NCBI GenBank assembly: GCA_050575255.1
Contig: JBNZDD010013689.1
Location: forward strand, 948,841-1,012,840
Direction: 5' to 3'
From: Harriotta raleighana
Lineage: Eukaryota
DNA length: 64,000 bases
Shown here: positions 41,595 to 56,006 of the stretch, piece by piece
How positions within the stretch are numbered: position 1 is the stretch's first letter
How the letters are laid out: each line of letters begins with the position of its first letter
The notes under the pieces: model-generated
What the model was told of the DNA's origin: nothing
The model's database searches: none
Seen by the model: the letters and a program-made list of their open reading frames with translations, nothing else
Position numbers and translations under genes: made by a program

Positions 41595-41711
41595 GTGATA
41601 AATCTCAAGTTCTGGATGTGGACAATCCTGACCTGAGCAAATATCCAGAATTTGCAAAAGCCCAATGTTATGAATGTCACCTGGACCCAGGTGATGTGCT
41701 TTTCATTCCAG
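41595..41711 (+). CDS. TYW5: TYW5 exon 7
   Basis: tatag|GT...G|gtaaag, 117 nt; [38 protein letters not shown](A). Confidence 0.95.
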
Positions 41712-42473
41712 GTAAAGTGTTTCTTTACCAAAGTTATTTTAAGGTTTTACTTGTTTGGTGAACCCTAAATTCTCCATTCTGGTTGCATTGATCACATTTT
41801 CAGCATTGAAAGCTTACAAAATTGTTTTGTGGGGAACTAATAGAAAACATGTTTGCACCGACAAAAGGCATTCAATATCTGGGAGTTAAATATTCTTTAT
41901 ACAATGTGACGATGGTGTGTGCATTTTAAAGTTACAAAAGCATGTTGTAACGGAAGCATAAGCTGATCTAGTTATTCAGTGCTTAGTGCAGTTCCTAGCA
42001 CTATGTTGCAAATATTGTCAGTTCTAATCACGGCTGACGTCACAAGATTTCTGGAGGGACTCATCATCTCAAAGGTTATCCTACGCTTTACCCCTGCCCT
42101 CCTTCCACCCCCCCAAAAAACACAGCCTGCACTTTACCCCCACTCCCCGCTTGTTGAAAAAAAATCCTTTCTGTTTTAAATTTTCTGCATCCCAGCAAAA
42201 CGTTTAAATAACTGCAGGCTCCCATGTTGGGCAATGAATATCATTTGGGGGCCAGGTTTGATGATGTCTTAATGCACAGTATTATGCCAAATCAAGATTT
42301 ACCAATTCATTGGTTTACCCTGGTTGACGATCGTCAACAACGACTTCTGAATCGAGAAATCAAGGTCTCAATTTGTATTGTTCCGTTTGCTATATGCAAA
42401 CTGTCTTCCAAAATCATCACAATTTATTTAAATGTGTCTTAATTCCCGTGAATGCTCTTTTCCTCCCTCGCAG

Positions 42474-42730
42474 CACTGTGGTTTCACAACACTGTCGCTG
42501 AAGAATTCAGTGTGGGAGTCAATGTATTTTGGAAACATCTTCCAGCAGACTGCTATGATAAAACCGACATGTATGGAAATAAAGATCCCACAGCAGCCTC
42601 AAGAGCCATACAGATTTTAGACAGAGCCCTGAAGACATTGGAGGAACTTCCTGAAGAATACAGAGACTTTTATGCTCGTCGAATGGTCCTACGAATTCAG
42701 AGCAAATCATACAGCAATAATTATGAGTAG
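42474..42730 (+). CDS. TYW5: TYW5 exon 8, terminal (distal His of the JmjC iron triad)
   Basis: cgcag|CA...TAG; [44 protein letters not shown]...[23 protein letters not shown]. Spliced CDS is 954 nt (317 aa). Confidence 0.96.
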
Positions 42731-46321: not shown

Positions 46322-46735
46322 TCAGACGGGATCACCGCACGGTTTCGCACCGTACGACCCCGGGTCGGCCCCGCGGCAGGAAAACCGTCCGTCTCTCCTC
46401 CTCTCCCTGTCGGGAAACACTGCGCGAAGCCGCGGAGGCTCGAACTCCCGAACAGCGGCGGAGGAGGAGGAGGAGGAAGAGAGGGGTTTCTGCCTGGGGT
46501 CGATGTCAGGAACAACAGCAACAACAGCCTCGGCCGGGAGCGACGCGAACGACTTTCCGGATCCCGAGCTACGTTTTCCCAGCGTGAGGATCCCGGCGGC
46601 GTGGTTCCCGGAGCCGTGCAGGAGTTCGTAAAGTTGACATCGACATTTCCTCCGGGAACAGCAGCCGGGAAAGCTCCTGGTCTCCGGGAGAGCGAACAGC
46701 AGCATCCCGACCAGCAGCAAGACTTTGCTCACAGC
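46322..46735 (-). CDS. Prepro-orexin/hypocretin-like precursor, exon 2 (signal peptide core, orexin-A-like peptide, GKR, C-terminal extension)
   Basis: Acceptor ctctctccag|GCT; [55 protein letters not shown]. The CC-x4-C-x-C spacing is the same as in orexin-A, and [18 protein letters not shown] differs from human orexin-A by one residue (A>S). HCRT family is clear, but paralog identity is unresolved, so no symbol is given. Confidence 0.93.
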   Translation of the reverse strand, partial: [137 protein letters not shown]

Positions 46736-46765
46736 CTGGAGAGAGGGGAGGGGGACACACACACN

Positions 46766-46910
46766 ATCGACATTTCCTCCGGGAACAGCAGCCGGGAAAG
46801 CTCCTGGTCTCCGGGAGAGCGAACAGCAGCATCCCGACCAGCAGCAAGACTTTGCTCACAGCCTGGAGAGAGGGGAGGGGGTGGTGGGGGGGGACACACA
46901 CACACACAGC
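46766..46910. other. N-flanked redundant copy of the 5' part of orexin-like exon 2 and its acceptor (contig overlap)
   Basis: Repeats 46639-46764 immediately after the single N at 46765. Confidence 0.8.
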
Positions 46911-47571
46911 AATAAGCAAACAAGTTATCAACACTCTGGGACCAAACACAGGATCGAGCAAAAAAAAATAAACCCCCCACCACAACCACAGCGACATCTG
47001 TTTATATATATATATACAGAGAGAGAGAGAGAGAGAAATTAATTCGCGTTAATTCGCATTCATCCGCGTTAAAAGCCTCGGAAAACTCCTCTGTTCAAAA
47101 GCAAACACTCTACATACACACCTATATATACTGGACACATATCTATATAACAACAACTAAATTACACTAATATAATATATAAATATATAATATAAATGTA
47201 TATATATATATACACACTGTGTGGGTAAAACTGTGTGTCCAACAGCAGGATTGTGTTTTTGTTTTGTGCAGTGTTGTGCTGATATACTCTGAAAGTGCAA
47301 ACTAACTCTGGATTAACTACTGTATTTCATTGAGATGAACGCAGAACTCTGCACATCTGGGGAGGGGGGGGGGGAGCCGGATTGGAAATAACAATTTCTG
47401 CTTTTAAACAAAACAAGAACAAACCACAACAACAACAACAACAACAACAACAACAGCCCCCGTCTCCGGAGAACACTCCCAGACACGTTTAACATCCTCT
47501 GTTGCTGCTGAAGTTGTGATGCTTAGCATTAACAGTGTTTGAAGCCAGTGCTAACGAACACTCACACTTAC

Positions 47572-47610
47572 CATCCTCTTTGCTGTCAGAGCAGATGCAC
47601 AAGTGGGCAT
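47572..47610 (-). CDS. Prepro-orexin-like precursor, exon 1 coding part
   Basis: ATG CCC ACT...AGG ATG|GTAAGT with a consensus donor; [13 protein letters not shown], phase 0, joins exon 2 in frame. This mirrors HCRT, whose short exon 1 encodes the start of the signal peptide with a phase-0 intron. Confidence 0.85.
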
Positions 47611-55232: not shown

Positions 55233-56006
55233 TCAGAACATTTTGAGGACTCGAAAGTGGTTGTTGAGTGAGGGCGGCTGATTCTCAAAGTGAAGTTGGT
55301 CCGTTACGTTTGCGTCGAGCTCCCGAAGGAGACGGACAAATATTTGGTGTTCCTTCCCGATCCAAGCCCTCATGCTGTCCTGCACTTGGTAAGGCGTCAC
55401 GTGGGTTTGCACGGGGATCCCAGTCAGAGCCAACTCTCGCAGGACCTCAGGGCTGGTCACCCAGGTGTTGCTTCCCCCGGCATGACCCCCGTCCAACCAG
55501 TACACTTGGCTGATGGTCTGAATGAAGGCTGCCAGTTCCTCGTCCTGCCGAGCTTGGCCCAGCTCATGCAGGAGCTGGTTGAGAACCACGCAGCCTTTAC
55601 TGAACCCGATCAGGATCGACCTGAGCAGCGCATCGCCGTCTTTCTCACACTCTCTCCCGGTGTCCGTCCCGCTCGGAGCCGCCACCCCGTTTGGGGTGTG
55701 AGCGGACGCTCCTCGGTCGGCCCGCCCCGGGCACAGGAGGCCGACGCTCTGCTTGGCAGCATTGCTCAGCAGCGCACGGAGGTGCCTCAAGGCCCCGTGG
55801 TCCGGGCTGTGCTTGGGCGCACCGAACAGATCGCTCTCCACAAAGTTGTCGAAGCAGCTGAACTTGTGCAGGTGCATGCGCGAAGCCTTCACAATCCAGA
55901 CATGGCTGCCGGGGAATCTCCGCAGAAGCAGGGCTGCCGTATCCTCCAGGCTCCATTGCTGCCAGTGGGCATTCTCTGTGTGGTGGGACATCAACTCCCG
56001 GTAATT
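55233..56006 (-). CDS. C2orf69: C2orf69 (UPF0565, mitochondrial esterase-like protein) exon 2
   Basis: ttgtag|AAT; NYRELMSHH.EN..WQQWSLE...RMHLHKFSCFDNFV...LIGFSKGCVVLNQLL.EL...YWLDGGHAGGSNTWVT...HVTPYQV.D.MR.WIGKEH...NHFRVLKMF*. Confidence 0.95.
   Translation of the reverse strand, partial: NYRELMSHHTENAHWQQWSLEDTAALLLRRFPGSHVWIVKASRMHLHKFSCFDNFVESDLFGAPKHSPDHGALRHLRALLSNAAKQSVGLLCPGRADRGASAHTPNGVAAPSGTDTGRECEKDGDALLRSILIGFSKGCVVLNQLLHELGQARQDEELAAFIQTISQVYWLDGGHAGGSNTWVTSPEVLRELALTGIPVQTHVTPYQVQDSMRAWIGKEHQIFVRLLRELDANVTDQLHFENQPPSLNNHFRVLKMF

What the first reader, a model, noticed from the sequence alone, without database searches (positions are those of the whole stretch)
46322..47610. 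Intact orexin/hypocretin-family precursor gene hidden between TYW5 and C2orf69
Seen in the sequence: two exons with consensus splice sites (ATG|GTAAGT; ctccag|GCT, phase 0) build a 150-aa ORF. It reads [34 protein letters not shown] (hydrophobic signal-like), then [31 protein letters not shown] (46580-46672), then GKR. Established knowledge: human orexin-A is [35 protein letters not shown]2, with the same CC-x4-C-x-C disulfide scaffold, a GKR amidation/cleavage site and the same two-exon layout. Inference: this is a functional neuropeptide gene producing a ~31-aa amidated orexin-A-like ligand. It is easily missed because it is short, lies among microsatellites and is split by an N-join.
Basis: partly seen in the sequence, partly recalled or inferred. 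Interest (0 to 1): 0.95.

Follow-up and report, generated by a model that had tools for sequence, protein, structure and literature searches.

The report
Second orexin gene in a chimaera
An intact two-exon gene in a chimaera-like fish genome is a second, ancient copy of the orexin (sleep and appetite hormone) gene that encodes only one orexin-A-like peptide, predicted to be amidated and likely to act on the fish's orexin receptor; sharks, gar and paddlefish have similar one-peptide genes, and the usual orexin gene of this genome looks eroded.

Summary
The gene is real: two exons, a 150-codon frame, Pfam Orexin E 1.7e-17, a 31-residue peptide with all four cysteines and G-K-R. It is not the ordinary orexin gene. 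That gene lies on another contig (G000:C13467) among its textbook neighbours. The window gene is a second copy in a parallel block (PLCL-orexin-KCNH in the same order and orientation), so likely a leftover of vertebrate genome doubling. It encodes one orexin-A-like peptide and no orexin-B. One-peptide relatives exist in two sharks, gar and paddlefish, and amphioxus has the same layout; a tree rejects a chimaera-only duplication (p-AU 0.004). The exon-2 start repeated across the N is most likely an assembly overlap (48 of 75 single-N sites show one, 0 of 200 controls). The genome's ordinary orexin gene has lost two cysteines of orexin-A and the cleavage site of orexin-B. An 'HCRT2' is already named in a 2017 review table, so this is a new member of a known but little-studied kind. 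Expression and receptor activation are untested.

The parts
47572..47610 (-). Coding part of exon 1, 13 codons; both its first and its last codon are in-frame ATGs
   Evidence: ATG contexts. From the second ATG the first cysteine pair lies 25 residues on, as in the catshark and amphioxus one-peptide precursors
46863..47571 (-). Intron (GT-AG, phase 0), 709 bases if the overlap is collapsed; microsatellite-rich
46766..46881 (-). Second copy of the acceptor and 5' end of exon 2, most likely an assembly overlap
   Evidence: 115/115 identical; overlap pattern at 48 of 75 single-N sites vs 0 of 200 controls; contigs of runs X1 and X2 run on into the CA repeat instead
46765..46765 (.). Single N between the two copies
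46673..46735 (-). Exon 2, predicted signal peptide (hydrophobic core, then a small-residue -3/-1 site)
   Evidence: Kyte-Doolittle peak 3.2; aligned with the same region of shark, gar, paddlefish and amphioxus precursors; SignalP not run
46580..46672 (-). Predicted mature orexin-A-like peptide, 31 residues, cysteines at 4, 5, 10 and 12
   Evidence: 22 of 31 identical to a primate orexin-A, 17 of 31 to the genome's own canonical copy
46571..46579 (-). Gly-Lys-Arg amidation and convertase site
   Evidence: consensus described in PMC7365868 section 5
46322..46570 (-). C-terminal tail (82 codons) and stop; no orexin-B repeat
   Evidence: orexin-B profile finds nothing in three frames
41595..42726 (+). 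Last two coding exons of the downstream neighbour TYW5
   Evidence: exon scan; Cupin_8 E 8.5e-9; gene name recalled
55233..56006 (-). Frame holding the last exon of the upstream neighbour C2orf69
   Evidence: Pfam C2orf69 E 8e-85; best homologue Callorhinchus milii 83%

Best explanation
This is an intact second orexin gene (HCRT2-type), likely kept from early vertebrate genome doubling, that encodes a single orexin-A-like peptide predicted to be cut out, disulphide-bonded, amidated and to activate the fish's type-2 orexin receptor. Shown: the frame, splice sites, peptide and G-K-R site; absence of orexin-B; a separate canonical gene; the parallel gene order; one-peptide relatives in other jawed fishes; an HCRTR2-type gene in the same genome. 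Inferred: transcription, signal-peptide cleavage just before the Phe, C4-C10 and C5-C12 bonds, amidation, secretion from neurons, receptor activation. The one-peptide layout is most simply the ancestral one (amphioxus has it), with orexin-B added later only in the canonical copy.
For: Two orexin loci in the genome. Canonical locus flanked by STAT5/GHDC/PLCL/KCNH/KAT2/DHX58-like genes, the block given for kcnh4 in PMC13398235. Window contig: PLCL paralogue at 1,324 kb (-), SATB at 1,064 kb (+), this gene at 995 kb (-), ELK-type KCNH at 697 kb (-), i.e. PLCL, orexin and KCNH co-oriented in the same order as on the canonical contig; a third contig has PLCL, SATB and KCNH without orexin. One-peptide relatives in Scyliorhinus torazame, Chiloscyllium punctatum, Lepisosteus oculatus, Polyodon spathula and Branchiostoma; both sharks and the gar also have a separate canonical-type record, partial in the catshark. 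Tree: 16 canonical-type precursors form one side of a branch at 97/98 with the window gene outside; window + own canonical copy + C. milii rejected as a clade, p-AU 0.0044. Of 19 codons with the same residue in the two copies, 10 differ silently, and no gene-scale DNA similarity remains. The last 13 positions (11 peptide residues plus G-K... through R) match the commonest residue of 148 stored orexin-A segments; this is the part seen in the receptor pocket (PMC10987541 section 9). Seven HCRTR2-type exons on C13710.
Against: No transcript, peptide or assay. The tree rests on 56 columns; the five one-peptide vertebrate genes are neither shown nor rejected as one clade (p-AU 0.11), and their gene neighbourhoods in other species could not be read, so they might come from more than one duplicated locus. 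The N-terminal loop differs from canonical orexin-A at 7 of the first 13 positions where the window residue is in 3% or fewer of 148 stored segments, and holds an internal R-R-K that a convertase might cut. The tail is not conserved among the one-peptide genes. No C. milii record of this gene came up. Jawless fish were not sampled, so loss of orexin-B from this copy is not excluded.
Confidence: 0.82

Rival explanations
1. The gene is an ancient paralogue but is silent or disabled in this species, for example because the repeat of the exon-2 start is real and splicing to the first acceptor gives a frame-shifted product without the receptor-binding end.
For: Read from the upstream acceptor, the frame runs through the N into a different frame and lacks the active C-terminus. 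Raw reads were too thin to call variants (15 and 8 reads laid).
Against: Such repeats flank 48 of 75 single-N sites and 0 of 200 N-free sites; contigs of X1 and X2 match 46488-46764 with no other letter and continue into the CA repeat (one study, possibly the assembly's source). Frame open for 137 codons with all four cysteines and G-K-R kept.
Confidence: 0.08
2. It works like orexin in outline but has been redirected: expressed outside the hypothalamus or acting mainly on another receptor, for instance an HCRTR1 that this assembly lacks or that my search missed.
For: Divergent, basic N-terminal loop. HCRTR1 is reported in gar and coelacanth (PMC6008884 passages); gar also keeps a one-peptide gene.
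Against: The pocket-binding C-terminus is unchanged; the HCRTR2 exon query found no second receptor above 37% identity, though absence from a 13,732-contig assembly is weak.
Confidence: 0.06
3. A recent, chimaera-only duplication or transposition of the ordinary orexin gene that then lost orexin-B.
For: Two copies in one genome; the canonical copy is eroded, as can follow a duplication.
Against: Rejected by the tree (p-AU 0.0044 and 0.0002); no gene-scale DNA similarity between the loci; parallel gene order; two kinds of record in sharks and gar.
Confidence: 0.02
4. It is simply the ordinary HCRT orthologue of this species.
For: Its peptide is closer to tetrapod orexin-A (22 of 31) than the other copy's is (19 of 31).
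Against: The other copy sits in the canonical block and pairs with C. milii prepro-orexin at 99/94; the window gene has no orexin-B.
Confidence: 0.02

Closest known systems
HCRT2, listed as a post-2R member of the hypocretin family in Furlong and Seong 2017, Table 1 (PMC5207463), which draws on Yun et al. 2015 (PMID 26337547, not held)
   Same: A second vertebrate orexin gene attributed to genome doubling.
   Different: The table gives a name only; species, locus and peptide number were not visible to me, so identity with this locus is likely but not checked.
One-peptide orexin-like database records: S. torazame GCB75871.1, C. punctatum GCC27540.1, L. oculatus XP_015214290, P. spathula XP_041116246.1
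   Same: One four-cysteine peptide with a Gly-dibasic site, no second peptide, similar signal-peptide end; nearest rows to the window gene in the tree.
   Different: Tails unrelated; peptide ends vary (Val or Met in three of four, Leu here); neighbourhoods unread; named hypothetical, uncharacterized or orexin-like.
Vertebrate prepro-orexin (HCRT; Pfam PF02072)
   Same: Two exons with the intron in the signal-peptide region, orexin-A directly after the signal peptide, cysteines at 4/5/10/12 as in Xenopus orexin-A, G-K-R.
   Different: No orexin-B; different chromosomal block; different loop residues.
Amphioxus orexin precursor (Branchiostoma, e.g. AYA73845.1)
   Same: Single four-cysteine peptide beginning Phe-Pro-x-Cys-Cys, 25 residues from Met to the first cysteine, G-K-R.
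   Different: Peptide C-terminal half is more divergent; predates the duplication.

Membership tests
Orexin precursor family (PF02072) | Profile score above the curated cut-off | tested here: met
   64 bits vs 22.6
Orexin precursor family (PF02072) | Four-cysteine orexin-A scaffold and conserved C-terminal motif followed by Gly-dibasic | tested here: met
Orexin precursor family (PF02072) | Cleavable signal peptide directly before the peptide | tested here: inconclusive
   hydropathy peak 3.2 and alignment with relatives; SignalP not available
Orexin precursor family (PF02072) | Amidated peptide activates an orexin receptor | not testable with these tools
   receptor gene present; no assay
Canonical vertebrate HCRT | Orexin-A and orexin-B in tandem | tested here: not met
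   no B repeat in three frames
Canonical vertebrate HCRT | Position in the STAT5-GHDC-KCNH4-KAT2A block | tested here: not met
   that position is held by the copy on C13467
Canonical vertebrate HCRT | Two exons, intron in the signal-peptide region | tested here: met
   phase 0 in both copies of this genome
HCRT2 (genome-doubling paralogue) | Lies in a block paralogous to the HCRT block | tested here: met
   PLCL, orexin, ELK-type KCNH in the same order and orientation
HCRT2 (genome-doubling paralogue) | Older than the split of cartilaginous and bony fishes | tested here: met
   outside the 16-row canonical clade, 97/98; chimaera-only origin rejected; 56 columns only
HCRT2 (genome-doubling paralogue) | Same locus as the shark, gar and paddlefish one-peptide genes and as the published HCRT2 | not testable with these tools
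   no vertebrate genomic context available; monophyly p-AU 0.11; Yun 2015 not held

The most novel reading that the evidence does not exclude
The one-peptide gene preserves the pre-vertebrate orexin layout, so orexin-B arose after genome doubling in one copy only; and in this chimaera lineage it has taken over as the main ligand of the only orexin receptor, because the canonical gene has lost orexin-B's cleavage and amidation site and one of orexin-A's two disulphides.
Probability: 0.22. Interest if true: 0.72.

Novelty: new member of a known kind. Interest (0 to 1): 0.5.

Why it matters
The passages I read describe one vertebrate prepro-orexin with two peptides (PMC7365868 section 5; PMC6008884 introduction). 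A second, one-peptide gene kept in chimaeras, sharks, gar and paddlefish gives a handle on when orexin-B arose, a question raised by the one-peptide precursors of amphioxus and tunicates (PMC10987541 passages). In this genome the ordinary gene looks eroded while the second keeps the textbook peptide, which makes hand-over between duplicates testable with two synthetic peptides and one receptor. It also warns that orexin antibody staining and expression work in cartilaginous fishes may be reading two genes. It is not a new kind of system.

Tried and rejected
RNA: no RNA holder listed; not evidence either way. Word-indexed protein searches (119 and 83 hits) returned none of the one-peptide fish or amphioxus genes; only the full HMMER scan did. 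Atlas: the window protein could not be read; with the C. milii homologue it gave only orexin and other neuropeptide clusters. Metagenome scan: one weak hit, L041, 20 residues, taken as chance and not examined further. Weak genome hits (E 0.05-5.7) not followed; none is on the third block's contig C13697. First tree had a python row cut at the wrong peptide; dropped and rerun. Three single-stretch hits (camel, white-eye, pigeon models) carry the canonical tetrapod peptide and were left out of the tree as probable faulty models. No fold or complex prediction: a 31-mer this close to solved orexin-A adds little, and no spliced receptor protein was on hand. Yun 2015 and Hara 2018 not held; one supplement of PMC13450315 had no HCRT entry. 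Earlier scan findings: nothing relevant.

Full report
OBSERVATION. On the minus strand, 47610-47572 encodes 13 codons ending at a GTAAGT donor, and 46735-46322 begins after a ctccag acceptor; together they give 150 codons with no stop. Exon 2 scores 64 bits on Pfam Orexin (E 1.7e-17, cut-off 22.6) and the peptide matches human orexin-A chains in the PDB at E 5.5e-13. Its cysteines sit at 4, 5, 10 and 12, the positions given for the 31-residue Xenopus orexin-A (PMC7365868 section 5).

THE N-JOIN. The acceptor and the first 96 bases of exon 2 are present twice, on either side of the single N at 46765 (115 of 115 bases identical; exon starts at 46862 and 46735). This is a habit of the assembly: 48 of 75 single-N sites in the window and 26 fetched 10-kb stretches have an exact non-repetitive duplicate of 40 bases or more across them, against 0 of 200 N-free sites. 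Contigs from runs X1 and X2 match 46488-46764 with no other letter and then continue into the CA repeat of the intron rather than into the second copy; both belong to one study that may be the assembly's source, and the raw reads of another sample were too few (15 and 8) to add anything. I read the repeat as an overlap artefact; collapsed, the intron is 709 bases.

HOST AND SECOND LOCUS. The neighbouring C2orf69 exon is 83% identical to Callorhinchus milii and 55-60% to the sharks and rays listed, so the host is a holocephalan other than C. milii (inference). Three searches of the genome (window peptide, Pfam profile, C. milii precursor) each gave two strong loci: this one and G000:C13467:240 kb. 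The latter is flanked by STAT5-, GHDC- and PLCL-like genes on one side and KCNH4-, KAT2- and DHX58-like genes on the other (exons; domains; gene names by recall of the sequences), the block that PMC13398235 gives as stat5-ghdc-plcl5-kcnh4-rab5c-kat2-dhx58 (passage). That human HCRT lies between GHDC and KCNH4 is recalled. This copy pairs with C. milii prepro-orexin at 99/94. It is the canonical gene; the window gene is not.

ORIGIN. The PLCL exon finds three loci, the ELK-type KCNH exon three close ones (86-100%, next 55%), and the SATB domain two. On the window's contig the order is KCNH 697 kb (-), orexin 995 kb (-), SATB 1,064 kb (+), PLCL 1,324 kb (-); on the canonical contig PLCL 225 kb, orexin 240 kb, KCNH 250-267 kb, all (+). 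PLCL, orexin and KCNH thus have the same order and orientation in both. A third contig (C13697) has KCNH, SATB and PLCL in the same arrangement with no orexin hit. This is the pattern expected of blocks made by whole-genome duplication (inference; PMC13398235 assigns the ELK genes to it). The two orexin copies share 17 of 31 residues; 10 of the 19 codons with an unchanged residue differ silently, and blastn finds only short repeat-like matches between the loci.

RELATIVES. A full HMMER scan gave 43 hits. Eleven match in one stretch only; I looked up ten (the eleventh is a rodent model seen). Four are one-peptide precursors of jawed fishes (S. torazame GCB75871.1, C. punctatum GCC27540.1, L. 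oculatus XP_015214290, P. spathula XP_041116246.1), two are amphioxus, one is a partial canonical catshark model, and three are camel or bird models with the ordinary tetrapod peptide, which I left out as probably faulty. Both sharks and the gar also have a canonical-type record. In a tree of 23 rows and 56 columns rooted on amphioxus, the 16 canonical-type rows form a clade at 97/98 with the window gene outside it, its nearest rows being the two shark one-peptide genes; grouping it with the genome's own canonical copy is rejected (p-AU 0.0002; with C. milii added 0.0044). The five one-peptide vertebrate rows are neither shown nor rejected as a clade (p-AU 0.11). Whether they share one locus could not be checked.

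ANATOMY AND MECHANISM. A profile of 148 stored orexin-B segments finds nothing in the tail in any of three frames: the precursor carries one peptide. From the second in-frame ATG the first cysteine lies 25 residues on, as in the catshark and amphioxus precursors, and the peptide opens Phe-Pro-x-Cys-Cys as in amphioxus, gar and paddlefish. Predicted route, from established neuropeptide processing: signal-peptide removal before the Phe, two disulphides, convertase cut at Lys-Arg, amidation from the Gly. The last eleven residues and the processing site equal the commonest residues of 148 stored orexin-A segments (these were picked by the C-terminal motif, so conservation at those positions is partly built in). 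That end is what the orexin-B/OX2 structure shows in the pocket (PMC10987541 section 9). The genome holds seven exons of an HCRTR2-type gene on C13710, with the N-terminal motif reported for cartilaginous fishes; one exon used as query found no second orexin receptor (next hit 37%). So the likely target is HCRTR2. Against a simple reading: the cysteine loop differs from canonical orexin-A and contains Arg-Arg-Lys, though C. milii canonical orexin-A has the same triplet. Nothing here shows expression or activity.

THE CANONICAL COPY LOOKS ERODED. Its two exons, splice sites and frame are intact, but orexin-A has lost the second and fourth cysteines, i.e. one whole predicted disulphide, and the Asn of the C-terminal motif, seen in essentially all 148 stored segments. 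Its orexin-B differs from C. milii at 7 of the last 13 positions and has no dibasic site after the Gly, followed shortly by a stop. No N lies in that exon, but it rests on one assembly. This raises the possibility that the window gene now supplies the main ligand; untested.

PRIOR KNOWLEDGE. Furlong and Seong 2017 (PMC5207463; passages and the table section read) list HCRT and HCRT2 as post-2R members, without species or locus; their source Yun et al. 2015 was not held, nor Hara et al. 2018, whose shark gene sets probably supplied the two shark records (inference), and their supplements may describe this gene. PMC7365868 (passages and section 5) and PMC6008884 (passages) describe one precursor with two peptides; PMC10987541 (passages, section 9, supplement passages) notes that invertebrate chordates have only the A-like peptide and uses only the canonical C. 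milii sequence in the places shown. Ten full-text searches listed no paper on a one-peptide second orexin gene of cartilaginous fishes or its locus; the library lacks most subscription journals.

VERDICT. Real, intact-looking, and a member of the orexin family, but a paralogue: an HCRT2-type gene, probably from genome doubling, with one amphioxus-style peptide. New member of a known, little-studied kind; interest 0.5. The bolder reading (ancestral layout plus hand-over from an eroding canonical gene) has probability about 0.22.

Noticed in passing
G000:C13467:239378-240371 (L038 3378-4371; L002): Canonical orexin gene with intact frame and splice sites but orexin-A lacking two of four cysteines and orexin-B lacking its dibasic site.
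   Followed up: partly
G000:C13689 about 680-717 kb (L042-L045): An ELK-type KCNH gene (73-88% to the KCNH4-like exons) lies on the SATB2/C2orf69 contig, about 300 kb from the window gene. By recall human 2q33 has no such gene; it may be KCNH3 in an older position or a fourth ELK duplicate.
   Followed up: partly
G000:C13467:225-229 kb (L009): A third PLCL-like gene beside the canonical orexin gene, matching the plcl5 named in PMC13398235.
   Followed up: partly
G000:C13710 about 1,087-1,132 kb (L031-L036): Seven exons of an HCRTR2-type receptor; no HCRTR1 found with one exon as query.
   Followed up: partly
window single-N sites, e.g. 13854, 14209, 24964, 25057, 29560, 31121, 46765; also L013 4411-4926 and 6338-6853: The assembly repeats 50-170 bases across many single Ns (7 of 13 in the window); a KCNH4-like exon also appears twice in L013. 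Apparent tandem duplications in this genome should be distrusted.
   Followed up: partly
window 25126-25632 (-): First exon of a gene recalled as MAIP1, head to head with TYW5; no Pfam hit.
   Followed up: no
P0284 (Lepidochelys kempii XP_073182227.1) and P0001 (Condylura cristata): Database prepro-orexins with five and three peptide repeats: real expansion or assembly error.
   Followed up: no
window 46882: T>G in 6 of 9 reads of run X5, in the C-rich tract before the upstream acceptor copy; an allele or reads from a similar repeat.
   Followed up: no
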